Below are positions 30,551 to 50,578 of a stretch of 64,000 nt of DNA, piece after piece. The notes beneath the pieces are model-generated. The model saw only the letters and a program-made list of their open reading frames with translations, searched no databases and was not told the origin of the DNA. The translations under genes and the position numbers were made by a program. Source of the DNA: a virus (taxonomy: Duplodnaviria; Caudoviricetes); the IMG/VR virus record IMGVR_UViG_3300037424_001021, positions 1 through 64,000 of that record; one strand, written 5' to 3'. The first letter of the stretch is position 1. Each line of letters begins with the position of its first letter.

Positions 30551-30559
30551 ATAAAAAGA

Positions 30560-31042: not shown

Positions 31043-31051
31043 AGAAGAAAC

Positions 31052-31465: not shown

Positions 31466-31476
31466 TCCAATGCAAT

Positions 31477-32370: not shown

Positions 32371-32382
32371 CAGGTAATTCAA

Positions 32383-35300: not shown

Positions 35301-38300
35301 AAAAATTAATTCTATTTTGTTAAATTCAAACAAAGAATTCTTATTAGGATTGCTTAATGGATTTATCGATGGAGATTTTCATATCAGGGAAAAAGAACTC
35401 TCTTGCAATCAATCAAATCAAATTTTACAAGAGCAACTGCGAGATATCTTTTTTAGTTTAGGGATACAGGTTAATACAACTTATGTAGAAAAAACTAATG
35501 GTATTCCAGATAAATTATACTATGCTTATGGATTTAATTTATATCGCAATGAAATATTTAAATTAAGACAATTAGGCAAATCAGGATTTAAATTATCAAA
35601 AGATATTGCGACTGGAAAAACTAAATCTACAGAAAGCTTTTTAGAAGAATATCCTGATTATTATATTTTATATAAAAAAATAAAATCAATTAAGAACTTG
35701 CCTTCTACCGACTTTCTTTATGATTTAGAAATAGAAGACAATCATCATTACTACGCCGAAGACTGCGTAGTACATAACTCCGAGATGGTGGGTTTGCCGG
35801 GCTTCATAGAGTCATCTATTAAAGAAAAATTAACTGGAACACAAGACTGGTTTGACCAGTTTGCTCAATTGGAAACTTCAAGAAGAATGGGGGGTTCTGA
35901 GAGAAATTACTGGGATAGAGAACTTGGAGATATTTTCGGAACCTCGGAGACTATTAGACGCTTTTTCCCGCATCGTCGAAGAGGTATAGATTTATACAAT
36001 CCAATTACTAATACTCAACCTTGTCTATTGCCAGATACCGAAGTTTTAATGGCAGATGGGAAATGCAAGAGAGCCGAAGATATAAAAATTGGAGAAAAAC
36101 TTATTTCTCATAAAGGAGAAGAAGTTTTTGTAGAAAATATAGGAAAATTCCCAACATCCAAAGTCGTTCATCTCTCTCTGTATGGAGATAATTTTCATAA
36201 ATTAGATTTTTCTCCAAATCATCCTATTTTAACTGATGAATTAATTTTCAAAAATGCTGAAGATATCAGAAAAGGAGATTACGTAGCCTTTCCTATTCGC
36301 AATTATGAAAAAGAAATACCAACGTACAAAATAGATATTTCAAATTTTCTCAATATAAACTGCTCAAAAACAGACAAATATTTATATTATGGAATTCAAT
36401 CTTCCAATTATATGGAAAATGAAATTGCAGAAAAGTATAAATTTAAAATTAAAGAAATTCCATTAGAAATAAAACATAAATATCCAAAATTATACAAAAT
36501 ATGCAATTATAGATTAAATAGTAATCGGAAATCTTCGTATAAAAGAATTTTAAGAAATTGGGATATTGAAGATTTTTATTATCTTATTGGAGTTTATATT
36601 ACAGAAGGTTCTGTTTTTTCGCTAAGAGATAAGTCTTTTAAACTTTCTGGTCATAAACAAGATAAATGGGAAGAAAGAATAAAAAATATTTTCAATAAAT
36701 ACGAGATTAAATATTCAATAGAAGACTCAATAACAGGAACAGGAAGAAATTTTCAGATTACCAATCCTATTCTTTTTAATATTTTAAGAGATATCTCTCC
36801 AGGTCATGCAAAGGAAAAATATATTACTGAAAATATTCTTAATCATTCTAATCCTGAAATTGCCATAAAATCACTAATTAAAGCACTGATAGATGGGGAT
36901 GGTTGTTATTTTAAAACCAAAAGCAATAGAATTAGATGTCAACTAAAGACAACTTCTAAAAATTTAGCCTATCAATTTAGAAACCTTGTAATAGATGTAT
37001 TTCATTTTGCTCCTTCAATTACTCATTCTGTTTTTAAAGAAAAAGAAAGTTTTCATATATCGCTTTCAGGTTTAAATGCAAATATTTTAGCAAAAGAAAT
37101 TGGATATCAAATTTTCGACTATACTCCTAAACAAAATAACAATAAACAATATTCAGATAATTCATACATCTATATCAAAGTAAAAAAAGTCTTAACTGAA
37201 GAAAAAGATACCTATGTAATTGGTCACCAAGTTGCAGGAGACCATACTTTTTGTGTATCTTTAATAGCTACTCATAATACGTGGATGCCCGGAGCTGGAG
37301 ATAAAAGTCCAGATTTTAGAACTGGTGATCCTATGGTCAAAATTCCATTTGGAGAAATGAGATTACCTGGACCTGGCATAGAAGCAAGATATCCAGAATT
37401 AGAAGGAGTTGCTCCAGAAGATTACAAACCCGCCTATCGCTATAAAATTCTATGTTTAGATGCTAAAACTCTTGTTATCACAGATAGCGGAATGAAATCT
37501 ATTCAAACTATTCTTGAAACAGATCAAGTTATCGGAGAAGATGGCCAATATCATTCAATACTTTCAAAAATTCATAATACTAGAATAGATGATAAATATA
37601 AATTATATACATTTTATAATTTCGAACCTTTGATCTGTAGTGCGAAACATAAAATTTTAACTTCAGATAAATCTGGAAATATAACTGAGAAAGAAGCGCA
37701 AAATATTACACAAAATGATTATTTAGTTTTTCCTAAAAGTTCTTTTGGGAATAAAAAAAATCTATGTATAGGAGACTACTGCAACACAGATGACGTAAAT
37801 ATTCAATATATAAAAGGAGTGTATTCAGCCAAAGCAAAAGGTTCTCAAAATTTTATACCTTTTAACTTAGAAGTTAATTACAACTTAGGATTTATTTTTG
37901 GATTATATCTAGCAGAGGGAGGGATTTCTAGATCAACTGTAATAACTTTTACATTTAACATCGAAGAAAAAAATACGATAGCTAAAAAAGTAGAAGAATT
38001 TTGTAATCAAATAGAACTTCCATATACTACTAGGGAAACTACCACTAATAGTTATCAAATTATCATTAGCAATAGGCTTCTAGCAAGATTTTTAGGAGAA
38101 AATTTTGGATATACCCAATATACTCATCATATTAAATTAGATTATTTAAATTATTCAAAAGAATTTGTTCAAGGAATTTTCGATGGCCATTTTAATGGAG
38201 ATGGATATATGGCTTGTACTCAAAGCACTATCAATGGTAGATCTACTTCGGTTTGTAAAGGCTTAATTGAAAATTTAAGATTAATGGGTCTAATGTTAAA

Positions 38301-40011
38301 TATAAATGGAGCTATTAATTTAAGAAAAGGAAAGTATATTGGCCAACAAGGTTACACTTTTGATATCCAAAGACGAGATTTAAAGAAAATTAAGATGGAT
38401 AAAATTCATTTGAATTATATTCCAAAATATAAAGAGTCTCAATCTAATAAATATAATTTTGAGAATGAAACTTTTCGTTTTGTTAGAGTTTCAAAAATAG
38501 AAATAGAAGAACAAGTTAATTGCGACTGGTATGACATTGCTATTGATGGAATAAACAATATTCATAGATTTGTTACTTCTCAAGGACTTGTTCACAATTC
38601 TGATGTTGCGCCATATAGTGATGCTTTTAAAACTGCTAAATTAGAAGTAATGCGCGCCCGAAAAATGAAATCTTGGACAGAAAGAGATGAAGAATTATTT
38701 ACTCAAGCAACTGATCAATTAAAAGAAAAGAAACAAGGACAACAATTTCAAGAATATCAATATCTCAATGAGATGGGCGGGTTAAGTGATAGCCCAGGTA
38801 AACAGTATGCGTCTCAATTATTAACAGAAATAAATGAAACACAAAAGAAAGGTATATCTTTTAATCAGTCAACTTTAAAAAATACAATAGGAAGTTATTG
38901 GGAATTATTAAGTCATAATGCAGAAACTGCTTTAGATCAATTAACTCCAGTATCTCCAGGAGCAAAATTAGTTCATCAACGTTCAGCAATTGAATCCTAT
39001 GAAAGAACTCAATTGTACGGTCAGTCTAATGCCTTTTGGCAACATCCTGTAAAAGATTTTCTTGCCCCATTTGCTCGTTCAGTCTCTCATGCATTTGGTT
39101 ATGAAGGAGAAAGTCCAGGTATACGCGAAAAGAGAGATATAGAAAGTTACTTTGATGTTTTAAAATATATGAAAGCTTCACGACTTGCAAATATAGCAAG
39201 GCAAGCTAAAGACGAAGAAGCTGTAAAAGAATTTGAAACTCAAAAAGACCAAACTCTTTTTGGCATAAATCCATTTACACGTAGATATGGAGACTTATTA
39301 CGAGCATTGCCAAGAGCAGAACGTGATTATCTTGGAGCATTTGAAAAAGCTGATACTTATGACGAGCGTGCAAAAATTCTTAAAATGGTTCCTGAAAATG
39401 AAAGAGGATTGTATCTTGCTCGATGGAAGTTAACCGAAGCTGACGAAATTCGTAGAGCACAAAAGGCGGGTATTTTATCACAAGACCAACTTAAACAAGC
39501 GGATAAAGAATTAGAACAATTTTATGGAGAAGCTAAAACAGAAGGGTTTCCATCTTCAAAAGAATTATTTGCAGAGTATTCTGCAACTCGTTCTTATAAT
39601 GAAAATTACGGAGATTGGTATAGAAGAATTTATCTATTGCCGAAAATTCCTAATCTTCCAGGGTCAGACTGGGTAGGATTTACTCCCCAGGTTGATTTAG
39701 AAGATATCAAAATGAAAGTCGTCAAAGAACATGGAAAAAATATTCATGATTACAATTTATGGGAATCCAGAGAAAAACAACTTGCCTATAAGTCGTATAT
39801 CAATGAAGAAGTAATTGCTCCAATTATGAAACCTAACCAGTTATCAATAGAAGAAAGAAAAAGTCAAATCAATGACGTATTACTTGCCAATGAAATCAAA
39901 GGTAGTACATTTATTAGAAGAGACAAAACTAGTAATAATTCTATAGATATTCATATAGAACAAAATAGAGATAAAGAAAAAGAAAAATTGATTTTAAAAG
40001 CATTGGATTAA
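32383..40011 (+). CDS. Tape-measure-position giant virion protein with three inteins (about 1289 aa after splicing)
   Basis: Follows the chaperones; multiple Gly-rich hydrophobic helices in the N-half; three complete inteins; TTG start. Confidence 0.65.
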   Translation: MARFPYVYSLASGRVYYGSALPSNNQNNQPQYWTNQPQIPVTSNFQVLKNTAITGGVLGTIGAIGFLPTKTGNVWDKYLHGMRAIEEFSPGGILRTFQLSNVFSPLSSTVKKANYHITPELLANNPTYLEYLSRLIGGSDTKFKLYQQGVTFRGGKLHWGTGNELALRYSSMLLSAGHGTAQRIGAAYARNLGLQSNVPLEHFFANIQPRPELAELINPSIEKEAFQVIGGQSRLQSSYRYISAIGTEQVDRFNRLLNAQSDIPILKEAFGKLQTSWKSVFGKPFKLGVKETGGLRMFGKLGFKYGVGLTALTLGYQTLDWTARRSELLDDTVLDEGLTVAGATVGIKANLAISKIAEKLGLHSYREKQEEIAPGSTSLTKLAAFPIMGALAPIGGLYAYKTTKMASLIRQGLTPAAARETAQEAISSWKSGPLLEQVGNIFAKKGGLYSNGGILDNLIKKIAFPDKAGNLIYKGLGKLTPGKLGAAMGASIGLAMIAPFLPGALMPSQRPDELEALYSGRKEIAIRKGRGWLMGRSKFEGEKPITFLPHWFPRMRMRATERGLWGPEEDERSPISKWLAKETSYELELRHYYDRPYGLTGTFGEDLPLIGPLVGATIGRLIKPPRPMHESEFQGKGGEFLVPQPRYGERINTEIGQQLPGKPVSPYSPTQVAGEQIYRMCFTKDTSIRMADKAYKKINEIKINDEIWQLKQPKRVKNIFIHSQTEDEQLKEIQVYGDWRKLKVTDSHIVLALQPKFCSAKTYNCIPNGSRESSKCKKCKNKLYQKYQLEWIPVKELKKWDYLIQYIPKAKDSKKELYLPDILNMDNFEIIDNQIYRRIQKSFVRKSNDYINFKGTEIHRKGNEYSADYIDRNAKTLPLSIPLNWDFGWLCGYSLAEGSPRAYQVSYAAHIDELDSHFKKLFDLMNLFFNEKEIRWIVKKDGEQKLTNGIEAIINHTSLAELLRSLLGIPSHKKINSILLNSNKEFLLGLLNGFIDGDFHIREKELSCNQSNQILQEQLRDIFFSLGIQVNTTYVEKTNGIPDKLYYAYGFNLYRNEIFKLRQLGKSGFKLSKDIATGKTKSTESFLEEYPDYYILYKKIKSIKNLPSTDFLYDLEIEDNHHYYAEDCVVHNSEMVGLPGFIESSIKEKLTGTQDWFDQFAQLETSRRMGGSERNYWDRELGDIFGTSETIRRFFPHRRRGIDLYNPITNTQPCLLPDTEVLMADGKCKRAEDIKIGEKLISHKGEEVFVENIGKFPTSKVVHLSLYGDNFHKLDFSPNHPILTDELIFKNAEDIRKGDYVAFPIRNYEKEIPTYKIDISNFLNINCSKTDKYLYYGIQSSNYMENEIAEKYKFKIKEIPLEIKHKYPKLYKICNYRLNSNRKSSYKRILRNWDIEDFYYLIGVYITEGSVFSLRDKSFKLSGHKQDKWEERIKNIFNKYEIKYSIEDSITGTGRNFQITNPILFNILRDISPGHAKEKYITENILNHSNPEIAIKSLIKALIDGDGCYFKTKSNRIRCQLKTTSKNLAYQFRNLVIDVFHFAPSITHSVFKEKESFHISLSGLNANILAKEIGYQIFDYTPKQNNNKQYSDNSYIYIKVKKVLTEEKDTYVIGHQVAGDHTFCVSLIATHNTWMPGAGDKSPDFRTGDPMVKIPFGEMRLPGPGIEARYPELEGVAPEDYKPAYRYKILCLDAKTLVITDSGMKSIQTILETDQVIGEDGQYHSILSKIHNTRIDDKYKLYTFYNFEPLICSAKHKILTSDKSGNITEKEAQNITQNDYLVFPKSSFGNKKNLCIGDYCNTDDVNIQYIKGVYSAKAKGSQNFIPFNLEVNYNLGFIFGLYLAEGGISRSTVITFTFNIEEKNTIAKKVEEFCNQIELPYTTRETTTNSYQIIISNRLLARFLGENFGYTQYTHHIKLDYLNYSKEFVQGIFDGHFNGDGYMACTQSTINGRSTSVCKGLIENLRLMGLMLNINGAINLRKGKYIGQQGYTFDIQRRDLKKIKMDKIHLNYIPKYKESQSNKYNFENETFRFVRVSKIEIEEQVNCDWYDIAIDGINNIHRFVTSQGLVHNSDVAPYSDAFKTAKLEVMRARKMKSWTERDEELFTQATDQLKEKKQGQQFQEYQYLNEMGGLSDSPGKQYASQLLTEINETQKKGISFNQSTLKNTIGSYWELLSHNAETALDQLTPVSPGAKLVHQRSAIESYERTQLYGQSNAFWQHPVKDFLAPFARSVSHAFGYEGESPGIREKRDIESYFDVLKYMKASRLANIARQAKDEEAVKEFETQKDQTLFGINPFTRRYGDLLRALPRAERDYLGAFEKADTYDERAKILKMVPENERGLYLARWKLTEADEIRRAQKAGILSQDQLKQADKELEQFYGEAKTEGFPSSKELFAEYSATRSYNENYGDWYRRIYLLPKIPNLPGSDWVGFTPQVDLEDIKMKVVKEHGKNIHDYNLWESREKQLAYKSYINEEVIAPIMKPNQLSIEERKSQINDVLLANEIKGSTFIRRDKTSNNSIDIHIEQNRDKEKEKLILKALD
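34423..35778 (+). mobile_element. Intein 1 (452 aa) with LAGLIDADG endonuclease and a Cys-rich insert
   Basis: M|CFTKDTSI...DCVVHN|S; GYSLAEGS and NGFIDGDF motifs. Confidence 0.93.
36022..37278 (+). mobile_element. Intein 2 (419 aa) with LAGLIDADG endonuclease
   Basis: P|CLLPDTEV...IATHN|T; GVYITEGS and KALIDGDGC motifs. Confidence 0.93.
37453..38598 (+). mobile_element. Intein 3 (382 aa) with LAGLIDADG endonuclease
   Basis: L|CLDAKTLV...GLVHN|S; GLYLAEGG and GHFNGDGY motifs. Confidence 0.93.
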
Positions 40012-40014
40012 GAT

Positions 40015-43000
40015 ATGCCGCCGCCAAAAAAAGAAACAAATAGTGGAGATTCATTTTTAAAAGCCGCAATTAGAGTAGGCACCGCTGGTGGATTATATGC
40101 TTCGTATAGAAAAGGTAGAGATTTAAAAACAGCAAAAAATTCATTTATCGAAACAAGTCAAGCGGTTGCTAAACCTTCAGGATTTGCTAACAAAACCGAA
40201 TATCTTGCTTTTCTTGAACAGCACAAGGAATTTATGCAAACTCCAGAAGGAGCAGAATTAACAAAACAAGCTTGGTTAAGAGCAGCAGAAAATGTCTCGC
40301 CTTCGTCTAAAAATCTTCTTTCTTTTACTTCAAATTTACAAAATGCGGCGGGTACTAATGTTTATTCTGCAATTGAAGCAACAATTCAACGTAATGAATC
40401 TAAGTATATAGGACGTACTGTTTTTCAATTTAAAAGAAATTTTAATGCATTTCGTTCTCATTATTCGTTAACTAAAACACTTCCTCAATTTACTACAGCA
40501 CCTGCAACAATGGCTGGAGTAGGAGCAGGGAAAGATGTAGCAGTTAGCGCACTTCCTTCTGGGATACAAGGTTATGTGTCTCGTATGCAACAAGAACTGG
40601 GAGGTTTAGTTAAAGCTAAATTTTATACGCGAAAAGGCTGGAAAGAAACTGGACATGGACAATATCTTTTAACTTTCGATACTCCAAAGGGTAAATTTTC
40701 TGTAAATGTTCCACTGCAATCTCAAGGAACTGTCGTGGAAGGATTAACTCAATCTTCTACGAGAATTGGACAATCAACTCGATTATTTGACAAAACAACA
40801 AAAGGACTTATTGGGACATATACGGCTCCAGAATTTATGCTTTATGAATTAGAAAAGACATTAATTCCCGCAATTCAGTCAGGCAAATATCAATCTGGTT
40901 ATGATATTCAAAAAGTAATCAATACTATATATGAAGAAAATATTGGTAAACTTGAAGCTGTACCTAATATTCCTGCAAATTTACGGCAAAAAGGTTGGAA
41001 ATCTTATACAGGAATTAAAAGTAGAGCTGTTAGATTAAGATTATTAGATCAAGCAAATCAACAATCAATTTTTAGAATTCCTGGTTCAGAAGAAAGAATG
41101 GCATTATTAAGAAGTAATAGAGATTTAACTCCTTTTACTTCTCCAGGTAATTTAGCAGAAGCAACCTATAGTACATATGATCCTCGTGCCTTATTGCCTA
41201 CTCCAGAAGCAATTGATTTTAGTCGTTCGCCTCGTCAAATGAACAGAGAATGGAAGGCAACCGAATATGCATCAAGAGCAATAAGAAATCTTGGTAGAAG
41301 TAAATTTGAAACAGTGCAATGGCAAAGAGATATGGGAGTTGGTTCGTCTCCTTTATTGAAAGCAATTTATATAGATCCAGAACGTCATTCTGATTTACTT
41401 CAAAAATTCGGTATGGCAGAAGGCGAACATTTGTTTGCAGAAAATCCAGAAGTTCGAAGAATGCTTCAATCTGAAAGAATTGGTTTTTCTGGTAATTTAA
41501 AAAGTATCACTCCTAATCTAGAAAAAAGAATTCGAGAAGGACGATTTACTCCAGGCGAAATTCTTGGAATGACAACAGAAGGAGAAGCCTATAGATATCA
41601 GAAAGGAATGAATCTTCTTGGATTACAACAAGTTTCAACTAAAGGTAAAGGAGCTTTTTATCAATTAAGTTATAAAGAAGTTTATGATTTTTCAGAAGCA
41701 GAAAAAACTTTCGGAACTAAAGGAATGGGCAAGTTTGTTAATGAATTTAATGTTCAAAAAGAAATTGCACCATTGACTCAAAATGCACAGATAACTCAAG
41801 GTTTTCAAACTGTTATTAATATGGATATACTCAAAAAAGACAGACAGCTTCATAATCAACAAATGCTTGGTGCGCTACATGAAGCAATAGTTATTAGATT
41901 TAATCAAGGAGCTAATCTTTCTGGTTGGGAAAAACGTTTCTATGAGAATCCAGTTGGTATAGGAAATATGTTAAGTAAACAAGCTACGACTGGAAATATA
42001 TATAGTCATGAGAATTTTGTGGCTAATTTAATGAGATTAGCAACTCAAAAACTAAAAGTTAATCCAGAAGAATTTGGCGTAGCATTTGGTTCTGTTCCAT
42101 ATACGATGGGATTAGAATGGGCACAGCAGCAAATGGAATCATTAGCTCTCTCTCAAGCACATAGAATGTCTTTGTTTTCTGGAATTTCTGGAGGATTAGC
42201 AAGAACAGTATTTGCAGGTCCTCATTCAAGGAATGCAGGAACACTGGGAGCATTAGAACCCCGCGTTTTTGAACAACTAACCGCAGGACAATTTGGACCT
42301 ATGGGAGATCAAATTGCAGAAGATTTATTTAATAGACTTCGGGTTACTAATCCAGAACAATTTGAGACTTTTGAAGCTTTGACTAAATCTTTACGTTCAA
42401 TGACGGGAGTAATAAAACCAGGAAAAGGAGAAGAAATTTGGGATTTATCGAATATAAACAAGATTTATGAATCTCAAGCTTTTCAAGAACAAATAGAAAA
42501 AGGAAGTTTCTGGTTACGTACTGGAAAGTTTGGGATACCAGATATATACGTTCCTGGAGTTGCCGAAGCTTCAAGGTTCGAGAGATATAAGACAGCAGGG
42601 GGCGAAGCCTTCAGAGGAGATATATCAAGTTTATACCATGATTATGCGCGAAAGGCGGGTACTGTATACCAAGATGTTGGACAAATAAGCAAAGAAGAAC
42701 TTCAGCAGTCTTTTGAAGAATTGATTTCAGGAGTTCACAAACAACAAGCTCCATTAGGAAAAGGAGCTGGAGCTTTATTCGGAGGCAAGGTTCTTGGTTC
42801 GAGATACCTGACCGCAGTATCGTCAATTGCTGGATATACTCCTCCTAATCTCAATACTGTTGGAATTAGTCCAGAATATCTAAATCAAATGATGGAGGAA
42901 ATGAAAGAAACTGGACTTTACGACACAGAAACCTTAGTAAGAAATCGGAAAATTTTAGAAAGAGGTGGAACTATTCCTGGCATGATCAGACGAGATCCAG

Positions 43001-44364
43001 CAATTGGTTCTTATTCTCAACAATTAATAAATTTCCAAATGATGAAAAATGCCGAAGGTCCAGTAATTGCAGTTCCATCTCGATTGACTCAAATCGCAAT
43101 TCAGGGAGAAGAAGAGTTGAATCCAGTTAAACTTGGTCCGATGTTGGGTCTTTCTGGAGATTATGATGGAGATACAGTTGCAGCTTTTCTTCTAAATCCA
43201 AAATTAAATAAAGATATCAATCAACATTTCACATCTCTTTCATCTAATTCGGAGTATCAGCAAGCTTATATCCAACACCAGATCAGAACACAATTAATGC
43301 AAGCAAAGGGTCTTGGAGTTAAAGGCGAAGTTGGACAAACTATATTAGATAAAATGATTGCAGATGCAGAGAAATTAGGAACTACTGAGTCTTGGGTGCC
43401 TAAATTATCAAATGAATTAACTGCAATGAAAGCAGCAGTTCATAGTAAGTTATCTAGACAGACTGCGGTAAACGCCAGAGCACTTTTAGAATTTGCAGAA
43501 CAAGTGCCTGTATCAGGCAAAAAACTACCAACAGGTCAAGTTCTTAACAGAACTATGGAAAGTTTATTTCAAACGATGCATCAATCAGTGCAATCTCGTG
43601 ATCCTGTTGCATTTACCAATGTTATCAATCGTATGTTGGAATCAAGTGGACCAATAACAAAAAGACTATTAACAGGAGATTTAAATATAACTTTAGAAGA
43701 CCAAACTCCGATAACTTTAAAAGGGATGGATCTTGAAGATACAGTAAATCAAATGATGGGAGCTTATACTCAAGCTCAAGAAAGTGGAGAAGCTCGATTT
43801 TTTAATCAATTGCGTGGACAATCTACTATGAAAGTTTCAACTTTAAGACGATATCTATCAGCAGGTTCTGAATTCTTGCAAGAAAAAACAACAGGTATTG
43901 GTTCTATGTTTAAAATGGTTTCAGCAACAATAGCTGGAGCTAATGAGTTAATGGCTGTTGGTAAAAAAATATTAACAAGTAAAAAAGTTGGATTTGGTTT
44001 TGCAGGAGCCATTGGATTGGCAATGGCATTGTCTTCTCCTAAAGATTCTATAGGGCCAGCTGTTGGATTAAATACTCAACCAAATCTAAATCCTAATAAA
44101 GGAAGTTCAAGAGTATCTCCTGACCAGATAGCTCCTTCTCAGCCATTAGGAAGTCCTACGTCTCCAGACTTGTTTAGTTCTCCGAATGCTCGTATTGCTA
44201 TGACTCCTGAATCTGGTAGAATATCAATTAGAGCAACCTCAGATAGGACTGTAAATAAACTAATGCTAGTTTCTAATATGACTGGTTCTAATAGTTCAAT
44301 AAATATAAGCGACCGTTCCGAACGTTTAAATAAACATGTTTTGATAAATAAATTGCTTGGTTAA
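40015..44364 (+). CDS. Putative single-chain two-barrel (DPBB) DNA-dependent RNA polymerase, probably virion-packaged
   Basis: Beta'-like motifs in correct order: FGGKVLGSRYL (~LGKRVDYSGRSV), GMIRRDPAIG (~LLNRAPTLH), LSGDYDGDTVAAFL (~NADFDGDQMAVHV; D1049/D1051/D1053). Weaker beta-like EKTFGTKG...TVINMD upstream. Confidence 0.7.
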   Translation: MPPPKKETNSGDSFLKAAIRVGTAGGLYASYRKGRDLKTAKNSFIETSQAVAKPSGFANKTEYLAFLEQHKEFMQTPEGAELTKQAWLRAAENVSPSSKNLLSFTSNLQNAAGTNVYSAIEATIQRNESKYIGRTVFQFKRNFNAFRSHYSLTKTLPQFTTAPATMAGVGAGKDVAVSALPSGIQGYVSRMQQELGGLVKAKFYTRKGWKETGHGQYLLTFDTPKGKFSVNVPLQSQGTVVEGLTQSSTRIGQSTRLFDKTTKGLIGTYTAPEFMLYELEKTLIPAIQSGKYQSGYDIQKVINTIYEENIGKLEAVPNIPANLRQKGWKSYTGIKSRAVRLRLLDQANQQSIFRIPGSEERMALLRSNRDLTPFTSPGNLAEATYSTYDPRALLPTPEAIDFSRSPRQMNREWKATEYASRAIRNLGRSKFETVQWQRDMGVGSSPLLKAIYIDPERHSDLLQKFGMAEGEHLFAENPEVRRMLQSERIGFSGNLKSITPNLEKRIREGRFTPGEILGMTTEGEAYRYQKGMNLLGLQQVSTKGKGAFYQLSYKEVYDFSEAEKTFGTKGMGKFVNEFNVQKEIAPLTQNAQITQGFQTVINMDILKKDRQLHNQQMLGALHEAIVIRFNQGANLSGWEKRFYENPVGIGNMLSKQATTGNIYSHENFVANLMRLATQKLKVNPEEFGVAFGSVPYTMGLEWAQQQMESLALSQAHRMSLFSGISGGLARTVFAGPHSRNAGTLGALEPRVFEQLTAGQFGPMGDQIAEDLFNRLRVTNPEQFETFEALTKSLRSMTGVIKPGKGEEIWDLSNINKIYESQAFQEQIEKGSFWLRTGKFGIPDIYVPGVAEASRFERYKTAGGEAFRGDISSLYHDYARKAGTVYQDVGQISKEELQQSFEELISGVHKQQAPLGKGAGALFGGKVLGSRYLTAVSSIAGYTPPNLNTVGISPEYLNQMMEEMKETGLYDTETLVRNRKILERGGTIPGMIRRDPAIGSYSQQLINFQMMKNAEGPVIAVPSRLTQIAIQGEEELNPVKLGPMLGLSGDYDGDTVAAFLLNPKLNKDINQHFTSLSSNSEYQQAYIQHQIRTQLMQAKGLGVKGEVGQTILDKMIADAEKLGTTESWVPKLSNELTAMKAAVHSKLSRQTAVNARALLEFAEQVPVSGKKLPTGQVLNRTMESLFQTMHQSVQSRDPVAFTNVINRMLESSGPITKRLLTGDLNITLEDQTPITLKGMDLEDTVNQMMGAYTQAQESGEARFFNQLRGQSTMKVSTLRRYLSAGSEFLQEKTTGIGSMFKMVSATIAGANELMAVGKKILTSKKVGFGFAGAIGLAMALSSPKDSIGPAVGLNTQPNLNPNKGSSRVSPDQIAPSQPLGSPTSPDLFSSPNARIAMTPESGRISIRATSDRTVNKLMLVSNMTGSNSSINISDRSERLNKHVLINKLLG

Positions 44365-44366
44365 TT

Positions 44367-47300
44367 ATGTCTAATTTAAATACAGACACTTCTTTCTTTC
44401 AGTTGAACGATATCTGCTTATCTATTCCACCTGAAAGCATAAGTATTCAGCATAAATTGTACAATAATACTTGGCAGACACTGCGTACTCGTTCTTCGAC
44501 TAAAGTTAAATCTGGTTTTTCTCAGATTGAGATAATTGTAAAATGTAAATTTGCAGATTTAGTTTTATTTCCAACATCAGGTGGATTACCTACCAATAGT
44601 TTTTATGAATTAAGAAATTTAGTTTCTCAATTTAGAATTACTCCATTTTGTTACGTAGAAAATCAATATTTAAGGGATAACATTTTATCCGGCGATTTGT
44701 CGGAAAATATGGCGCTTGCTTTGCGACAATTAGAGATATTTACTTCTCCAGACCAAGTAAACGTAGTAGATGTAATTTTTCATTTTGCATGGTTTAACTA
44801 TGCGCCTTTTCTGAAAAATTTTACTTTTAAACGAGACATTTTTCTACCAGATGAAGTGAATGATCCTAAAGATTCTCGTGCATATAGATTATTATATTTA
44901 GCAGAACAACAGCGGGTTATATACGATCCTCTGTTAAGTTTAAATGGAGATGTTAATTTTCAATTTTATGAATATAAAGTTATTTCTAAAAAACAATATC
45001 AAGCTTTAAAACATGATTACGAGTTATATGAAAAATTGCAAAATACGAATCCTGATCTTGTTATTGGTCGAGATCAATTATTAAATCTTGGATTTGCAGC
45101 AAATGAAACTAACGCCACTTTACAAAATTTATTTGGAAATCAATCTTCACAAAGTCAAGATATTACTTTAAATGACATTATCCAGTCATTAAATTCTTCA
45201 ATTCAGGATCCTACATCTTTTATTTCAACAATCCAAAAAGATTGGAAAGTTGTATATCTTGGAGGAGAACAAAAGTCAGTAAAACTGCAAACTACTTTAA
45301 AAACTGACCACGAGATTGAAGAAACAGAACTTAATAAAATTACCGAAGAAGAAATGGTACTTCTTCAAAAAAATCACGAAATTGATTTAGCAAAAGCTGG
45401 AATTGTCGTTACAGGACTTCATATTTCATTTGAAAATATATTAGCTACTATTCCTATGTTAGGTTATAGTTATCCAACTTTTCAACATATTGGTTCTACA
45501 GATGCAGTAATTTCATTGTCATTTCAAACTGATTCAGAAGCAGGAAGTCGTACTTTATCTAATATTCTTAACATCTATAATCAACAATCTTTAACTAATA
45601 GATTTATTCCACAAGGTCATCGCAATATTCATATTACTAATGATTTACTTGGAATGTGTGGATTACGAAATTTTATCATTGAAAGCAAAAGCATTCAAAC
45701 TGTTCCTGGTCAACCAGGTGTATCTGTTGGAACTTTAGTTTTCCTTGATGATTCATTAAATGAGAATACAAGTGAACAAATTATACAAGGTCAAAGTTTT
45801 ACTACAAGTTTCGATATAAGAAACAAAATTGCAAAAATTCTAGAAAAAAATCTGCAATTAGTCTCTAATGTCTTTAAATTTAATGACGAAGGAGAAGCTA
45901 TTTTAAATTCAGAAGCAGCTATTAGAATAGCAACTGGACAAACTGTAGCCGTTGTTGCAGGAGTTGCTGGAGTACCAGGTTCTGTTACAAATATAGCAAT
46001 AACTAAATCTTCGTATTACCGATATATTGGGATAAATGATAATAATCATCAAGTCTTTAAAAAACTTTGCGAAGAATATGGTTTAAATCTTTCTATTCTC
46101 TTAGAAGAATTAGTTGAATATTTGCAAGAAAAAGAATCTTTCTTATTGCAATTAAAAAGATTTTTTAAACACACTGAATCTGGAAGTTCTTTTTTATATC
46201 ATTTTTTTGGATTAACTAATGAAGAAATTATAGGTATCAGTAAACTTCAAGAAGACATGTATCCAGTTTTTCAGAAAAATTCTCGAAGAGACGAGTTAAG
46301 CGATAGCAGAATAAGTTCTCTAAATGAATTGCAAAAATTCTCTCGCGAACAACTAGAGCAATTAAATGATATAGAAACAACAGGGACTCAAACAAGTCAA
46401 ACTCAAGATTTATTGCTTTCCTTTATGCAAGATAAATTTACAGAATGGCAACAATTTACTTCCGCTTTTTTGGATAAAATTTTGTATTCTGGTTTAATAC
46501 ATTTGCCTCAATTTAAAGAAGCTACAGATTTAATTGCAAATAATGCATTAAATAGTGGAACTGATTGTTATCCAGATTTTCCCTTACAGAATTTAGTATC
46601 CTTATTGTCTTCTTCCAAGGATAATGATTTAAATTTAGCCTTTGAAGCATTAAACCAATTATTTCAAACTACTGATTTGGGATTTAAGAATATCTCGTTA
46701 TCTTCATTGATAAATCCTGATTTTTATTTTTTCAACAGAGTGACAGATACTATTGATGAAATTGTTCCTTCAGATATCGTCAAAAGAGCTACAGATGGAA
46801 TTATCAAAGCCAGAGAAATGATGGAGCCAGCTGAAAGTGATTGGATGAAAAAAGTTTATGAAACAAATCTTTTGACAGATATAAGAAGTAAACAAATTAC
46901 TGCCGATATGGCCAAACCACTAGCAGACAAAAGTTTAGAAAAAGCATTTCAAACAAAGGCAGGACAGTCTTATAGAAATCATTTACAAAGAGCAACAATT
47001 TTTGCACCAAATCAATTAGTAGGAAGTATTACCTCTGCAATTAAAGAATCTTCATATGGTAAAGATATAATTGAATTACCTGCATTTAGTTTAAGCAACA
47101 ATTCTCAAAATGTATTAACTAACGAGAGACAAGCTATTAATTTAACTGTTAATTCGAGTATTCCTGAAATAAAACATAATTTTGATACAGAAGAGGTATT
47201 AAAACCAATTAATCAACCAAATTCTCAAATTGTTTTTAACGGGACTATCGAAACTCAATTAATTGACAGTCAAGGACATAGTTTGCAAAAAGATGCCGCT

Positions 47301-49808
47301 ATTAATTTTAAAATTATGGCAGCACAAGCAAGACAAGAAGGTATCAATTTAGTTGTTAATTCAGCCTATAGGGACAATGAGTATCAAGCAATATTGTATG
47401 AAAAATATCTAGTAGAATTAGCAAAATTCAATCAAGAAGAAATCACAGAGCGTCCTGCGCCAGCAGCAGCTCCTGGTAAAAGTAAACATAATCAAGGACT
47501 TGCAGTAGATATTCAAGTTGAAGATTCTTTTGAAAGCACAGTATACATGTGGCTCGACAAGAATGCTCCAGATTATGGTTTTATTAACACAGGGAAAAAC
47601 TTTAAAAGACCTGAACCTTGGCATTGGGAATTTCAACCAGATATGGTAACAAATACAGAACAGATAAGTTCTATTGGGGCAGCAATTGACCCTAACAATG
47701 AATCTCTTTTAACTAAAAGTTTAAATCAATTACAGAAAGATATATATACTAGTCAGGGTTATACGATGATGCGAGCATACCCTACTTTTAAATTATATTT
47801 TATTGAGTCAGATTTAGGAGAACGTAAACGATATGCTTTTGATGACTTTTTTAGTTATTCAGCAGTCAAATCTATCGAGTTGATTAGAAGCAGAAAAATC
47901 GCGGCGGATTTATTGTTACTCGAATTGACAAACATATCAGGTATTTTATCAAATAGAAAATTTCAATCTGCATATGACCCAACAAAACCAAGAGATGCGC
48001 AATCTTCTTCAAGAGAAAATCTCAATAATAGAACAGATGTAAATACTTTAAATGAGAATCCTATCGCATCTTTAATGTTACAACCTGGAGTCCAAATACA
48101 ACTTCGTTTAGGCTATTCCAATTCACCTGAAGAATTAGAAAAAGTCTTTAATGGTATTATTACCGATGTGGAATTTTCAGAAACAGATGATTTAGTTAGT
48201 ATTGTGTGTCAAAGTTTTGCTATCGAATTAGTTCAATCGATTCATGGCGAAAGTAAAAGTTGGGGTGGATGGTTCTCTGGAAATGGAAAAACATTCAAAA
48301 TTTTAGAAGAAGTTTTAGCTTCTCCAGAAGTTGTCCATTTTGGCAGATGGGAAGGAGGAGATTTTGGAAGAAATACTCAACGCTCTTTGTTAACAAAAAG
48401 ATGGAAATTTATTCCTGCTCCTCAAGATGACAATATTTTTGCTCCTCAAGGAGATACAGGTATTGGTTTTATTGATTCTATAATAGGTTCTCATAAGTAT
48501 ACAATGTATCAAACTACTTTATGGGATGTCATTCAAGAAATGACATTGCGTCATCCTTCGTATATTGCTTCTGTTGTTCCATATGACGGGAAAGATGGAC
48601 CAAGATCTACAATGTTTTTTGGAGTACCAGATCAATTGTATTTTGCAAGAGATTCTTCTTATACAGAAGATACTGTTGCTAGTAATTTAAATTCTCAAAT
48701 AGATAATTCAGAAATTTCTGCAAGAGATGCGTCAAGAGATGCCAATGTTGAGCCAATTAACGCCTTAGCTCGCAAAGAAGAAGATTCTTTGTATAGAAAA
48801 CGTTATTTTGAATTACTAAAAAAACAATATGGACTCAATCGAGGATTCATTAAGCCTTTTCGAAATTATCATATTGCTACGTCTGGAATGCATATTGTAT
48901 ATAACAATATTAGCGCTTCTGGACACAATACGTTCAATACAGCCACCGTTCAATATGGAAAAAGTGCCGCTGATCCAAATGAAAAAACTGGTCAATTAGA
49001 TTTTGATGGTTCCAGTACGTTTACGTTGAAAGCAGATGCGGCAATTCCTGACGAAGATATCAGAGAACTATCTGTTCAATATCCAAATTGTATTGGTGAA
49101 GAGGTTGCAAAAAATTATTGTTTAAGTTTGCTTTTTAATTCATTAAAAGATTCTTATAAAGGAAATCTTGTTTTAATAGGCAATCCGAAAATTAAACCAT
49201 TTGATATTGTCTACTGTTTCGACACCTATAATGATCTTGTAGGGCCCATTGAAGTTGAGCAGGTAATTCATAAATTTTCTCAAGAAACTGGATTTATAAC
49301 AGAAGTAACTCCCGATATGGTAGTACATGTTAATCAGCATTCTACCCTTTCTACAAGTGACGCAATGGGATATATCGCAGAATATGCACTAAAAAAAATC
49401 GGTGTTACTAATAATGTTTTAACTGGTTTAAAAATTGCTGGCAATGTTGCAACTCTGCCTTTACTTCCTCTCTCTCCATTAGCTGCTATGTTTTTTAATT
49501 CAGCTGAACATACTTTGTCCACTGGTACTAATAATTCTCCTTTGGCTTTAATTGGGACTTTTGTATTTAAAAAATTAATTACACGAACTCAGTTAGCTCA
49601 TCCATTTAGATTTAGTCCCTTAGTTTTACAATCTCATCCAATGATTGGAGGACTACCTAATAGAAAGACAGATGGTGGTTTTTTTCAACCTTTCGGTGAA
49701 TGGAAGAAAGACTTTAAAGACTATAGTTCTCAATATCTTGAACATCTTATGGATAAATTTAATCCAAATAATTGGCTTGATAAATCCGAAGGAGATATTA
49801 AATTTTAA
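44367..49808 (+). CDS. Baseplate hub (gp27/gpD-like) with an inserted M15B/VanY-type peptidoglycan peptidase
   Basis: NSAYR...PGKSKHNQGLAVDI...EPWHWEF at about 47260-47635. Hub-like motifs IQLRLGY...VFNGIITDV...IVCQS and GNPKIKPFD...EVEQVIHKFS...GFITEVTP. Confidence 0.75.
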   Translation: MSNLNTDTSFFQLNDICLSIPPESISIQHKLYNNTWQTLRTRSSTKVKSGFSQIEIIVKCKFADLVLFPTSGGLPTNSFYELRNLVSQFRITPFCYVENQYLRDNILSGDLSENMALALRQLEIFTSPDQVNVVDVIFHFAWFNYAPFLKNFTFKRDIFLPDEVNDPKDSRAYRLLYLAEQQRVIYDPLLSLNGDVNFQFYEYKVISKKQYQALKHDYELYEKLQNTNPDLVIGRDQLLNLGFAANETNATLQNLFGNQSSQSQDITLNDIIQSLNSSIQDPTSFISTIQKDWKVVYLGGEQKSVKLQTTLKTDHEIEETELNKITEEEMVLLQKNHEIDLAKAGIVVTGLHISFENILATIPMLGYSYPTFQHIGSTDAVISLSFQTDSEAGSRTLSNILNIYNQQSLTNRFIPQGHRNIHITNDLLGMCGLRNFIIESKSIQTVPGQPGVSVGTLVFLDDSLNENTSEQIIQGQSFTTSFDIRNKIAKILEKNLQLVSNVFKFNDEGEAILNSEAAIRIATGQTVAVVAGVAGVPGSVTNIAITKSSYYRYIGINDNNHQVFKKLCEEYGLNLSILLEELVEYLQEKESFLLQLKRFFKHTESGSSFLYHFFGLTNEEIIGISKLQEDMYPVFQKNSRRDELSDSRISSLNELQKFSREQLEQLNDIETTGTQTSQTQDLLLSFMQDKFTEWQQFTSAFLDKILYSGLIHLPQFKEATDLIANNALNSGTDCYPDFPLQNLVSLLSSSKDNDLNLAFEALNQLFQTTDLGFKNISLSSLINPDFYFFNRVTDTIDEIVPSDIVKRATDGIIKAREMMEPAESDWMKKVYETNLLTDIRSKQITADMAKPLADKSLEKAFQTKAGQSYRNHLQRATIFAPNQLVGSITSAIKESSYGKDIIELPAFSLSNNSQNVLTNERQAINLTVNSSIPEIKHNFDTEEVLKPINQPNSQIVFNGTIETQLIDSQGHSLQKDAAINFKIMAAQARQEGINLVVNSAYRDNEYQAILYEKYLVELAKFNQEEITERPAPAAAPGKSKHNQGLAVDIQVEDSFESTVYMWLDKNAPDYGFINTGKNFKRPEPWHWEFQPDMVTNTEQISSIGAAIDPNNESLLTKSLNQLQKDIYTSQGYTMMRAYPTFKLYFIESDLGERKRYAFDDFFSYSAVKSIELIRSRKIAADLLLLELTNISGILSNRKFQSAYDPTKPRDAQSSSRENLNNRTDVNTLNENPIASLMLQPGVQIQLRLGYSNSPEELEKVFNGIITDVEFSETDDLVSIVCQSFAIELVQSIHGESKSWGGWFSGNGKTFKILEEVLASPEVVHFGRWEGGDFGRNTQRSLLTKRWKFIPAPQDDNIFAPQGDTGIGFIDSIIGSHKYTMYQTTLWDVIQEMTLRHPSYIASVVPYDGKDGPRSTMFFGVPDQLYFARDSSYTEDTVASNLNSQIDNSEISARDASRDANVEPINALARKEEDSLYRKRYFELLKKQYGLNRGFIKPFRNYHIATSGMHIVYNNISASGHNTFNTATVQYGKSAADPNEKTGQLDFDGSSTFTLKADAAIPDEDIRELSVQYPNCIGEEVAKNYCLSLLFNSLKDSYKGNLVLIGNPKIKPFDIVYCFDTYNDLVGPIEVEQVIHKFSQETGFITEVTPDMVVHVNQHSTLSTSDAMGYIAEYALKKIGVTNNVLTGLKIAGNVATLPLLPLSPLAAMFFNSAEHTLSTGTNNSPLALIGTFVFKKLITRTQLAHPFRFSPLVLQSHPMIGGLPNRKTDGGFFQPFGEWKKDFKDYSSQYLEHLMDKFNPNNWLDKSEGDIKF

Positions 49809-50227
49809 TGAACAATCAGTCGTCAGCTCCTAAAAATGCACTTCAGCAAGGATTTACTAGTTTAAATAATATTGCTAGTCAGCCTCCTGATGATATTGAA
49901 CGTATTAGTTATGGAGTCATTGCCGAAGTTCATGAAGAATCATATCAAGTAAAAGTAAATTTTCTAAAAGCAGATAAAACTCTAGGAGAAGCAATTTCTG
50001 ATGGATTCCTTCCATTGTTAAATTCTTTAAGTCAAATTCATTTACTATATGGAGCTTTGCGTCCTGGATTGTTGGTCAGAATATATTGGCGTGGTAAAAT
50101 AAAACCGAATACGGCGATTATAGAAGTTATAGGAGATGAGGATTCGTCATTTTTACAAAAAGAAATTGAAGTTAACGAAATTGAAACTGGTCCATGGATG
50201 CTTTTATCTGGTGGATTAGCAGTATAA
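49808..50227 (+). CDS. Putative gp5-N/OB-fold baseplate spike component
   Basis: YGVIAEVHEESYQVKV...LRPGLLVRIYW pattern directly after the hub. Confidence 0.45.
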   Translation: MNNQSSAPKNALQQGFTSLNNIASQPPDDIERISYGVIAEVHEESYQVKVNFLKADKTLGEAISDGFLPLLNSLSQIHLLYGALRPGLLVRIYWRGKIKPNTAIIEVIGDEDSSFLQKEIEVNEIETGPWMLLSGGLAV

Positions 50228-50238
50228 AAAGGGATATC

Positions 50239-50565
50239 ATGGCAAATAAAACAAGAGTATGGCGTGTAAGTGCTAATGCAAAAGCAGGGATGCAAATATC
50301 AGAAGATACTGCAATTATGGCAGCTAATACAAAGAATTTTATAGCAGTAGGCCAAACTGGAACTGCTATTGCTGGTCCAGTGAATTTCATGACCACTTCT
50401 GAAAATATCAGAAGTGGTGGACTATTTATTCAAATGAATGATTTTATTAAAATGATTCCTGGCACTATAGTTACTCCAATACCTCAAGAAATTCCTTTCC
50501 CTCCTGTAGCGATGTTTGCATATGTAGCAAAAGTTCTACCGAGTTTACTAGCTTTAATTACATAA
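50239..50565 (+). CDS. Putative spike/baseplate small protein
   Basis: Short beta-repeat-like segments; start taken at M16 of the track ORF. Confidence 0.4.
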   Translation: MANKTRVWRVSANAKAGMQISEDTAIMAANTKNFIAVGQTGTAIAGPVNFMTTSENIRSGGLFIQMNDFIKMIPGTIVTPIPQEIPFPPVAMFAYVAKVLPSLLALIT

Positions 50566-50578
50566 ATAGGAGAACATT

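What the first reader, a model, noticed from the sequence alone, without database searches (positions are those of the whole stretch)
40015..44364. Single-polypeptide two-barrel RNA polymerase in the tail operon, 3 bp after the tape-measure-like gene
Seen: three motifs occur in the order of the bacterial beta' catalytic barrel: GGKVLGSRYL (923-932), IRRDPAIG (R993) and LSGDYDGDTVAAFL (D1049, D1051, D1053; nt 43159-43173). Further N-terminal are weaker matches to the beta barrel (MAEGEHL, PGEILG, EKTFGTKG with two Lys, TVINMD). Established: DxDGD binds the catalytic Mg in all two-barrel RNAPs. Single-chain beta-then-beta' enzymes are known from crAss-like vRNAPs and SPbeta YonO, and Thermus phage P23-45 has a vRNAP fused to its tape measure. 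Inference: this is a virion-packaged, injected RNAP in a contractile-tailed phage, encoded as a separate ORF abutting the tape measure (an unfused counterpart of the P23-45 layout). Gly-rich hydrophobic termini could mediate ejection. Pipelines would likely call it hypothetical.
Basis: partly seen in the sequence, partly recalled or inferred. Interest (0 to 1): 0.92.

Follow-up and report, generated by a model that had tools for sequence, protein, structure and literature searches.

The report
Tail-slot single-chain RNA polymerase
A 1449-residue "hypothetical" gene among the tail genes of an uncultured sediment phage with a contractile tail is predicted with high confidence to be a one-chain version of the cell's RNA polymerase core with its catalytic residues intact; it sits where related phages keep their tape measure, so the phage probably carries it in the particle and injects it to start transcription.

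Summary
No Pfam, PHROG or PDB sequence search recognises the protein. An exhaustive HMMER search found 183 clusters of relatives, nearly all 1400-1600 aa. In 123 aligned members D1049, D1051, D1053, R750 and P995 are invariant, and K564, K569, R993 and E748 nearly so. AlphaFold2 models (pLDDT 87-90, pTM 0.86) match RNA polymerases. Beta-type subunits align to residues about 180-785 and beta'-type subunits to about 794-1200. Single-chain two-barrel enzymes (QDE-1, P74-26 gp62, P23-45 gp96, crAss gp66) align across both halves.

The layout needs correcting. The upstream intein-rich gene is a homologue of Bacillus phage 0305phi8-36 gp145, a virion protein, not a shown tape measure. The polymerase gene lies directly before the baseplate hub, in the slot of 0305phi8-36 gp146, the putative tape measure. 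It shares only gp146's conserved C-terminal module. So it resembles the fused P23-45 arrangement more than an unfused one.

Virion packaging and activity are inferred, not shown. Acinetobacter phage ME3 gp036 is a likely cultured relative. The scan has reported the same kind of gene before on other DNA (56 notes in at least 47 genomes). No paper found describes the family.

The parts
40015..44364 (+). Whole gene 'B', 1449 aa: single-chain two-barrel RNA polymerase with a tape-measure-type C-terminus
40015..40188 (+). Residues 1-58: low-confidence N-terminus with a Gly/Ala-rich helix (14-34)
   Evidence: pLDDT below 50 in the model of residues 1-1200
40189..40479 (+). Residues 59-155: helical bundle of unknown role
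   Evidence: Helices 60-153 at pLDDT about 85-93; only generic helical-bundle matches at Z about 6
40552..42369 (+). Residues about 180-785: beta-subunit-like module
   Evidence: VIA-align: bacterial beta 6j9e_C Z 11.0 (486 aligned, model 180-785); Pol I A135 4c2m_B Z 10.8; AR9 7s00_C Z 12.6; phiKZ 7ogp_C Z 12.3
41560..41739 (+). Residues 516-575: first double-psi beta-barrel (beta type) with K564 (nt 41704-41706) and K569 (nt 41719-41721)
   Evidence: Six strands 516-575 in both models; K564 118/123, K569 110/123 plus 7 Arg
42256..42264 (+). E748-P749-R750, an invariant motif at the end of the beta-like module; it resembles the GEME(R) motif of beta/Rpb2 (resemblance from my own knowledge)
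   Evidence: E748 121/123, P749 118/123, R750 123/123
42394..43614 (+). Residues about 794-1200: beta'-subunit-like module
   Evidence: The 50 Foldseek PDB hits listed are RNAP entries, nearly all largest-subunit (beta'-type) chains, best E 1e-5. VIA-align: Pol I 7ob9_A Z 10.2-11.4, Pol II 9mu7_A, vaccinia 6rfl_A, Mtb beta' 6edt_D
42799..43197 (+). Residues 929-1061: second double-psi beta-barrel (beta' type)
   Evidence: The isolated DPBB domain 7dbo_B aligns 83 of 86 residues at rmsd 2.1 A, Z 6.9-8.1, to residues 929-1061
42991..42999 (+). R993-D994-P995 (family consensus R-H-P), upstream strand of the catalytic barrel
   Evidence: R993 121/123, P995 123/123
43159..43173 (+). D1049-Y-D1051-G-D1053: predicted Mg-binding triad
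   Evidence: All three Asp 123/123; loop between helix 1042-1045 and strand 1054-1059
43882..44358 (+). Residues 1290-1448: C-terminal module shared with the tape-measure-slot proteins of 0305phi8-36 (gp146) and Moorella phage MTATph1 (CDS0031). It includes a conserved Gly-rich hydrophobic stretch (about 1321-1340) and a terminal N-x-N-x-x-D-x-R-S-x-L-N-like motif
   Evidence: C-terminal HMM: own protein E 7e-38, gp146 31 bits E 8e-9, MTATph1 CDS0031 21 bits E 8e-6; controls at most 8 bits
32383..40011 (+). Upstream gene 'A', 2542 aa with three inteins. The extein (about 1290 aa) is a homologue of 0305phi8-36 gp145 and ME3 gp035
44367..49808 (+). Downstream gene 'C', 1813 aa: baseplate hub / tail lysin with a VanY peptidase domain, homologue of ME3 gp037

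Best explanation
Gene B encodes a DNA-dependent RNA polymerase of the two-barrel (cellular RNAP) superfamily in one chain. A helical N-terminal domain is followed by a reduced beta-like module (about 180-785) whose barrel supplies K564 and K569. Next comes a reduced beta'-like module (about 794-1200) whose barrel supplies D1049/D1051/D1053. Together these would form the usual two-metal active site at the barrel interface. The last 160 residues or so are a Gly-rich hydrophobic stretch plus the conserved C-terminal module that this phage lineage otherwise has on its tape-measure-slot protein. The gene is expressed in the late tail operon, between the gp145-like virion protein and the baseplate hub. 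I infer that the protein is built into the tail by its tape-measure-type C-terminus, is ejected with or ahead of the DNA, and transcribes the first genes without the host polymerase, as shown for P23-45 gp96. What is shown here by prediction and comparison: the fold, the motif conservation, the conserved gene order and the C-terminal homology. What is inferred: catalytic activity, DNA as template, presence in the virion, ejection and early-gene role. My odds: two-barrel polymerase homologue with an intact active site about 0.9; virion-delivered early transcriptase about 0.65.
For: Fold: models of residues 400-1200 (pLDDT 89.7, pTM 0.86) and 1-1200 (pLDDT 87.3, pTM 0.86) were made without templates from 51 sequences. 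Foldseek against PDB gave 199 hits at E<=1e-3; the 50 listed are RNAP entries, nearly all largest-subunit (beta'-type) chains, including phiKZ and AR9 non-virion RNAPs. VIA-align against 48,161 chains: beta-type chains align only to the N-terminal half, beta'-type chains only to the C-terminal half, and single-chain enzymes to both. These are QDE-1 7y7p_A Z 12.6 (345 aligned, rmsd 4.5), P74-26 gp62 8f5m_A Z 10.7-12.2, P23-45 gp96 8h2m/8h2n Z 8.0-8.5, and crAss phi14:2 gp66 6vr4_B Z 6.6-6.9. Conservation: the Asp triad is 123/123 and the other catalytic-type residues are nearly invariant at 20-58% identity. Family: 183 clusters at E<=1e-3, 128 at E<=1e-30. Context: the same A-B-C gene order is found in nine IMG/VR contigs. 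A is homologous to 0305phi8-36 gp145, and gp145 and gp146 were found in virions by mass spectrometry according to the record. B's C-terminus is homologous to that of gp146. Hardies et al. 2007 (PMC2147016) report that only the last 60 residues of gp146 are conserved in that lineage. C is homologous to the ME3 hub protein gp037. Precedent: P23-45 gp96 (PMC10770324).
Against: No experiment exists: there is no proteomics, activity or transcript data for this phage. The contig is only about 37% of a genome, so early genes and any promoter motif could not be examined. No sequence method links the protein to known RNAPs; the assignment rests on predicted structure and motifs. Residues 60-1200 are predicted as a compact globular body. 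It is not clear how such a body fits in a tail tube, and it is unlike the long helical rod of a usual tape measure. The C-terminal hydrophobic stretch is weak (no 19-residue window reaches Kyte-Doolittle 1.4). The best single structural match is QDE-1, which also copies RNA, so the template cannot be read from the fold.
Confidence: 0.7

Rival explanations
1. Active RNA polymerase, but not packaged. It is made late from the structural operon and works inside the cell (for example on late genes); its place among tail genes is historical.
For: Packaging is untested. 0305phi8-36 has its known RNAP (orf99, YonO/RdRP family) outside the structural module.
Against: The position is fixed between two virion/tail genes in nine contigs and in ME3. 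The C-terminal module is shared with gp146, a virion protein in the tape-measure slot. A late-made enzyme with no route into the next cell would be of little use for late genes that are already being transcribed.
Confidence: 0.12
2. A two-barrel polymerase with another substrate: an RNA-dependent RNA polymerase like QDE-1/RDR, or a primase- or DNA-polymerase-like enzyme like archaeal PolD.
For: QDE-1 and plant RDR2 are among the best structural matches (Z 11.4-12.6). The fold alone does not fix the template or product.
Against: The beta and beta' subunits of DNA-dependent RNAPs score equally well and cover the extra N-terminal beta-like region 180-400. The single-chain phage relatives tested so far are DNA-dependent RNAPs: P23-45 gp96 and gp64 (PMC10770324), and YonO and crAss gp66 from my own knowledge of their papers. 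A dsDNA phage has no known need for an RdRP.
Confidence: 0.08
3. A structural tail protein (tape measure or ejection protein) that keeps an RNAP-derived fold but no longer catalyses anything.
For: It occupies the tape-measure slot and has the tape-measure-type C-terminus.
Against: A relic would not keep all three aspartates in 123 of 123 sequences at 20-58% identity, together with the two basic residues of the other barrel and R750, R993 and P995.
Confidence: 0.05

Closest known systems
Thermus phage P23-45 gp96 (also P74-26, G20c, TSP4): virion RNAP fused to the tail tape measure (PMC10770324; PDB 8h2m, 8h2n)
   Same: Single-chain two-barrel RNAP joined to tape-measure-type sequence and encoded in the tail module. 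The predicted core aligns over both barrels (Z 8.0-8.5, about 350 residues). It has the DxDxD triad.
   Different: P23-45 is a siphovirus whose 5002-aa protein carries a long tape measure after the RNAP. Here the protein has 1449 aa, the tail is contractile, and only about 160 C-terminal residues are tape-measure-like. No sequence similarity was detected. This protein also has a beta-like N-terminal extension (180-400) that aligns with cellular beta.
P74-26 gp62 / P23-45 gp64 non-virion RNAP (PDB 8f5m)
   Same: Minimal single-chain two-barrel RNAP and one of the best structural matches (Z 10.7-12.2, 291-339 aligned).
   Different: About 600 aa, not in the structural module, and no tape-measure-type tail.
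Neurospora QDE-1 and plant RDR2 (PF05183 family), phage YonO, 0305phi8-36 gp99
   Same: Both barrels lie in one chain in the order beta then beta'. QDE-1 is the top match for the core model (Z 12.6).
   Different: There is no Pfam PF05183 hit, and PF05183 was not found in this contig or in five related ones. Those enzymes are cellular or non-virion.
crAss-like phage phi14:2 gp66 virion RNAP (PDB 6vr4)
   Same: Virion-delivered single-chain two-barrel RNAP embedded in a large protein. It aligns over both barrels (374-467 residues).
   Different: The match is weaker (Z 6.6-6.9). That phage is a podovirus with head-packaged cargo and no tape-measure link.
phiKZ / AR9 multisubunit phage RNAPs (PDB 7ogp, 8que, 7s00)
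   Same: Their beta- and beta'-fragments are the best matches for each half (Z 10.9-12.6; Foldseek E about 3e-5).
   Different: Those enzymes are split into four or five polypeptides; this one is a single chain.
Bacillus phage 0305phi8-36 gp146 (putative tape measure, virion protein)
   Same: Same gene slot (after gp145, before the hub) and a homologous C-terminal module.
   Different: gp146 has 2537 aa and no DxDxD, and it does not match the polymerase part of the profile.
Acinetobacter phage vB_AbaM_ME3 gp036 (1603 aa, 'hypothetical protein')
   Same: Same slot between the gp145-like gp035 and the hub gp037. It has R-E-P-A-x-G, then G-G-D-H-D-Q-D about 40 residues later, and a K-x-F-x-x-G-x-K motif in the same order. 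Its BFVD model matches the core (second half E 1.4e-7, first half E 1.4e-2), and HMMER hits barrel A (E 7e-5 among 7 sequences).
   Different: Sequence-level support is weak (hhalign probability 9%) and its C-terminus did not match the C-terminal profile. I treat it as a likely distant relative, not a proven one.

Membership tests
Two-barrel (DPBB) RNA polymerase superfamily | Two double-psi beta-barrels in one catalytic core | tested here: met
   Predicted structure only. Beta-type chains align to about 180-785 and beta'-type chains to about 794-1200. An isolated DPBB domain (7dbo_B) superposes on 929-1061 at rmsd 2.1 A over 83 residues. Barrel A is the six strands 516-575.
Two-barrel (DPBB) RNA polymerase superfamily | DxDxD metal-binding triad on the beta'-type barrel | tested here: met
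   D1049, D1051 and D1053 are 123/123, in a loop inside barrel B.
Two-barrel (DPBB) RNA polymerase superfamily | Two basic residues on the beta-type barrel | tested here: met
   K564 is 118/123 and K569 110/123 plus 7 Arg, on adjacent strands 563-566 and 570-575.
Two-barrel (DPBB) RNA polymerase superfamily | Templated, Mg-dependent RNA synthesis | not testable with these tools
   Needs a biochemical assay.
YonO / QDE-1 RdRP family (Pfam PF05183) | Significant match to the PF05183 profile | tested here: not met
   No Pfam hit at E<=1 other than a sub-threshold DUF2561 match. The relation is structural only.
Virion-packaged phage RNA polymerases | Protein present in purified virions | not testable with these tools
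   Indirect evidence only. The slot equivalents gp145 and gp146 of 0305phi8-36 are virion proteins by mass spectrometry, per the record's notes.
Virion-packaged phage RNA polymerases | Encoded within the structural (late) module | tested here: met
   The gene lies between sheath, tube and chaperone genes and the baseplate hub, with 2-3 nt gaps to both neighbours. The gene order is conserved in nine contigs.
Tail tape measure proteins of the 0305phi8-36 lineage | Gene directly upstream of the baseplate hub, after the gp145 homologue | tested here: met
Tail tape measure proteins of the 0305phi8-36 lineage | Conserved C-terminal module (the only part conserved in that lineage, PMC2147016) | tested here: met
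   31 bits, E 8e-9 to gp146; 21 bits to MTATph1 CDS0031; controls at most 8 bits.
Tail tape measure proteins (general) | Long, mostly helical extended body whose length sets tail length | tested here: not met
   Residues 60-1200 are predicted as a compact mixed alpha/beta body (pTM 0.86). Tail length is unknown.

The most novel reading that the evidence does not exclude
In a whole lineage of large contractile-tailed phages (183 protein clusters, probably including cultured Acinetobacter phage ME3) the tape-measure slot is filled by an RNA polymerase. The enzyme would travel through the tail tube anchored by a tape-measure-type C-terminus, stay at the entry pore in the host membrane, and pull in or transcribe the incoming genome as it enters. 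Genome entry and first transcription would then be one coupled machine, and tail length would be set by another protein, such as the gp145-like neighbour.
Probability: 0.25. Interest if true: 0.85.

Novelty: new variant of a known kind. Interest (0 to 1): 0.72.

Why it matters
Polymerases that phages inject decide how an infection starts and whether it depends on, or escapes, the host's transcription and its inhibitors. The only published link between a tape measure and an RNA polymerase is one group of Thermus siphoviruses. This gene suggests the link is widespread in an unrelated lineage of large myoviruses, in a much shorter protein that no annotation pipeline recognises. A cultured relative (ME3) probably has it, which makes the idea testable at the bench. 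It also adds a compact, highly diverged beta-beta' fusion to the set used to reason about the minimal cellular-type RNA polymerase.

Tried and rejected
Sequence searches with no informative result:
- Pfam and PHROGs on the protein.
- phmmer and a 123-sequence profile against PDB sequences; only noise such as calmodulin-like hits at E>=0.01.
- tblastn of the protein against 50,697 phage records: no match.
- One scan of bacterial and archaeal genome contigs for relatives: none. This says nothing about hosts.

Searches for a second polymerase or for links to isolates:
- PF05183 (YonO-type RNAP) was not found in this contig or in five related contigs. All are fragments, so this is inconclusive.
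- hhalign of the family against 0305phi8-36 gp145/gp146, ME3 gp036 and MTATph1 CDS0027 gave no confident full-length match.
- The link to ME3 gp036 rests on motifs, a weak HMMER hit and the BFVD fold match.
- The ESM Atlas look-up for the ME3-like protein gave only leads below 0.9; its first named family was PF05183 at 0.76.

Other:
- The sigma-70 promoter and terminator scan of 31000-50900 was at or below chance.
- Sequencing runs: no RNA holder is listed. The only full holder is a sediment metagenome that may be the source.
- The supplementary survey of viral two-barrel RNAPs in PMC10770324, as far as it is held, has no entry for ME3, Acinetobacter or 0305phi8-36. The stored file may be cut.

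Full report
OBSERVATION. The window is the first 64,000 nt of a 76,160-nt IMG/VR virus contig that CheckV rates about 37% complete. The only full holder among public runs is a sediment metagenome. ORF 40015-44364 (+) encodes 1449 aa. It starts 3 nt after the stop of a 2542-aa ORF and ends 2 nt before an 1813-aa ORF. Pfam, PHROGs and PDB sequence searches do not recognise the protein, and a family profile against PDB sequences does not either.

FAMILY AND CONSERVATION. A word-indexed search found four relatives. An exhaustive HMMER search of 1.8 billion cluster representatives with residues 400-1200 found 183 clusters at E<=1e-3 and 128 at E<=1e-30. Nearly all are 1400-1600 aa, and the longest among the best 150 is 1851 aa. 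In an alignment of 123 members at 20-58% identity to the query, the column counts are as follows. D1049, D1051 and D1053 are each 123/123, as are R750 and P995. R993 and E748 are 121/123. G928 is 119, K564 118 and S929 117. K569 is 110, with 7 further Arg. Position 1052 is Ala in 79 and Gly in 32, so the family signature is DxDxD. The order of the conserved blocks is K-x-F-x-x-K, then G-x-x-E-P-R, then G-K...G-S-R, then R-H-P-x-I-G-x-Y-S, then G-D-x-D-x-D. From my own knowledge of bacterial RNAP, this is the order of the beta barrel lysines, the beta C-terminal GEME-type motif, and the beta' motifs before and in the catalytic barrel.

STRUCTURE. AlphaFold2 without templates, on 51 sequences, gave a model of residues 400-1200 with mean pLDDT 89.7 and pTM 0.86. 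A model of residues 1-1200 had pLDDT 87.3 and pTM 0.86; only residues 1-58 were poorly defined.

Foldseek against PDB returned 199 hits at E<=1e-3. The 50 listed are RNAP entries, nearly all largest-subunit (beta'-type) chains, including fragments of the phiKZ and AR9 non-virion RNAPs (best E 1e-5).

VIA-align against 48,161 representative chains separated the two halves cleanly.
- Beta-type chains align to residues about 180-785: AR9 7s00_C Z 12.6, phiKZ 7ogp_C Z 12.3, Xanthomonas beta 6j9e_C Z 11.0 with 486 residues, and Pol I A135, ASFV RPB2 and Pol III.
- Beta'-type chains align to about 794-1200: Pol I 7ob9_A, Pol II 9mu7_A, archaeal A', vaccinia Rpo147 and M. tuberculosis beta', at Z 8.7-11.4.
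- Single-chain two-barrel enzymes align across both: QDE-1 7y7p_A Z 12.6, maize RDR2 Z 11.4-11.5, P74-26 gp62 Z 10.7-12.2, P23-45 gp96 Z 8.0-8.5, crAss phi14:2 gp66 Z 6.6-6.9.
- An isolated DPBB domain (7dbo_B) superposes on residues 929-1061 at rmsd 2.1 A over 83 of its 86 residues.

The Asp triad lies in a loop inside that second barrel. K564 and K569 lie on adjacent strands of the first barrel, residues 516-575.

CONTEXT: WHICH GENE IS THE TAPE MEASURE? The window carries these genes: a large terminase with an intein, portal, major head protein, tail fibre, sheath (25963-27861), tube-like paralogues, the three giant genes, a TnpB insertion, and baseplate J. The nearest cultured phages by portal and sheath are Bacillus phage 0305phi8-36, Acinetobacter phage ME3 and Moorella phage MTATph1, at 28-39% identity. 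In 0305phi8-36 the order after the sheath is tube, two chaperonins, gp145 (virion protein), gp146 (putative tape measure, virion protein), then gp147 (hub with lytic domains). Hardies et al. 2007 assigned the tape measure to orf146 mainly from tail length. They noted that only its last 60 residues are conserved in the lineage.

Nine IMG/VR contigs keep the order A (1266-1627 aa), B (1416-1955 aa), C (about 1915-2145 aa).
- A: its intein-free homologues match 0305phi8-36 gp145 with hhalign probability 100 and E 5e-58.
- C: it matches the ME3 hub protein gp037 (E 9e-37). It carries VanY here but peptidase M23 in a relative.
- B: its polymerase part does not match gp146. A profile of the last 175 or so columns of the family, however, hits the C-terminus of gp146 at 31 bits (E 8e-9 among 589 ORFs) and MTATph1 CDS0031 at 21 bits. 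The best of 2356 reversed or shuffled controls scored 8 bits. An independent whole-record search found the same two places.

So B, not A, is the positional equivalent of the lineage's tape-measure-slot protein, and it shares that protein's one conserved piece. The finding's title ("3 bp after the tape-measure-like gene") and the phrase "unfused counterpart of the P23-45 layout" therefore need correcting. This is a polymerase carrying a tape-measure-type C-terminus, without the long rod.

CULTURED RELATIVES. ME3 gp036 (1603 aa, 'hypothetical') lies between the gp145-like gp035 and the hub gp037. It has R-E-P-A-x-G followed about 40 residues later by G-G-D-H-D-Q-D, and upstream a K-x-F-x-x-G-x-K motif. 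HMMER with the family profile hits its barrel-A region (E 7e-5 among seven sequences). hhalign gives only 9% probability. In BFVD the two halves of a 1603-aa ME3 protein (A0A172Q021) match the core model at E 1.4e-7 and E 1.4e-2. That protein is evidently gp036, judging by its length and its split into two chunks. Other BFVD matches are a second ME3 protein of 798 aa (E 1e-7), a Microcystis phage MaMV-DC protein (E 4e-6) and a metagenomic 'minor tail protein' (E 2.5e-10). I take ME3 gp036 as a likely distant member.

MECHANISM. Shown by prediction and comparison: a beta-beta' fusion with all catalytic-type residues under strong purifying selection, encoded in the tail operon, with a tape-measure-type C-terminal module and a conserved Gly-rich hydrophobic stretch. 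Inferred: the protein is assembled into the tail through that C-terminus, as a tape measure is anchored at the hub. It then leaves with or ahead of the DNA and transcribes the first genes independently of the host enzyme, as demonstrated for P23-45 gp96 (PMC10770324). How a compact body of about 130 kDa would travel through a tail tube is unexplained; the same question is open for P23-45. The alternatives are listed with odds under rival explanations: a non-packaged enzyme, another template or product, or an inactive relic. The invariant triad argues strongly against the relic.

NOVELTY. Full-text searches found only the P23-45 paper for a tape-measure-linked RNAP. They found nothing on RNAP in ME3 gp036 or in this slot of 0305phi8-36-like phages. 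The 2021 jumbo-phage survey lists only the YonO-like gp99 for 0305phi8-36. The part of the P23-45 survey table that is held has no ME3 entry. The library is incomplete, so this is absence of evidence only. Within this scan the same kind of gene has been reported many times on other DNA: 56 notes in at least 47 genomes, several followed up with the same conclusion. I rate it a new variant of a known kind: a virion two-barrel RNAP linked to the tape measure, here in a different phage lineage, a much shorter architecture and a sequence family that is not annotated anywhere.

Noticed in passing
window 32383-40011 (+): The upstream 2542-aa gene holds three inteins (Hint/intein-splicing and LAGLIDADG hits). 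Their C...HN boundaries are followed by S, T and S, and they are inserted in three very conserved extein motifs within about 140 extein residues. Intein-free homologues are 1266-1348 aa, highly conserved (53% mean column identity) and homologous to 0305phi8-36 gp145. What this virion protein does is unknown; three inteins suggest an enzyme-like conserved core.
   Followed up: partly
window 7714-10842 (+): The large terminase subunit is interrupted by an intein with a LAGLIDADG endonuclease (Pfam: Hint module from residue 134, intein-splicing domain 145-502).
   Followed up: partly
window 51074-52120 (-): A TnpB-type gene (OrfB_IS605 plus Cas12f1-like TNB domains) is the only convincing minus-strand gene. 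It lies between small baseplate-region genes and a Baseplate_J gene (52208-53428).
   Followed up: partly
window 44367-49808 (+) and L004:14150-20077: The hub/tail-lysin protein swaps its cell-wall domain between relatives: VanY (D-Ala-D-Ala carboxypeptidase) here, peptidase M23 in the L004 relative.
   Followed up: partly
L012 (Moorella phage MTATph1) about 30012-37368: In MTATph1 the tape-measure slot seems to be split by a transposase insertion. CDS0027 (1309 aa) comes first, then a transposase (CDS0028) and a hypothetical protein (CDS0029), then CDS0031 (313 aa), which carries the conserved C-terminal module.
   Followed up: no
BFVD entries A0A172Q0S6 (ME3, 798 aa) and A0A075BUT7_2 (Microcystis phage MaMV-DC): A second, shorter ME3 protein and a MaMV-DC protein also match the polymerase core by Foldseek (E 1e-7 and 4e-6). 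ME3 may therefore have two unannotated two-barrel RNAPs, like P23-45.
   Followed up: no
window 27890-28558, 28593-29729, 29723-30550 (+): Three neighbouring genes hit PHROG 9206, labelled 'major head protein'. In 0305phi8-36 the corresponding genes carry the same product name, but their notes say tail tube and tail tube paralogue, so the PHROG label looks misleading.
   Followed up: partly
window 11979-13565 (+): A 528-aa protein between the terminase and the portal has a weak PHROG hit to an RNA polymerase sigma factor family (E 7e-4) and no Pfam hit. This may be chance.
   Followed up: no
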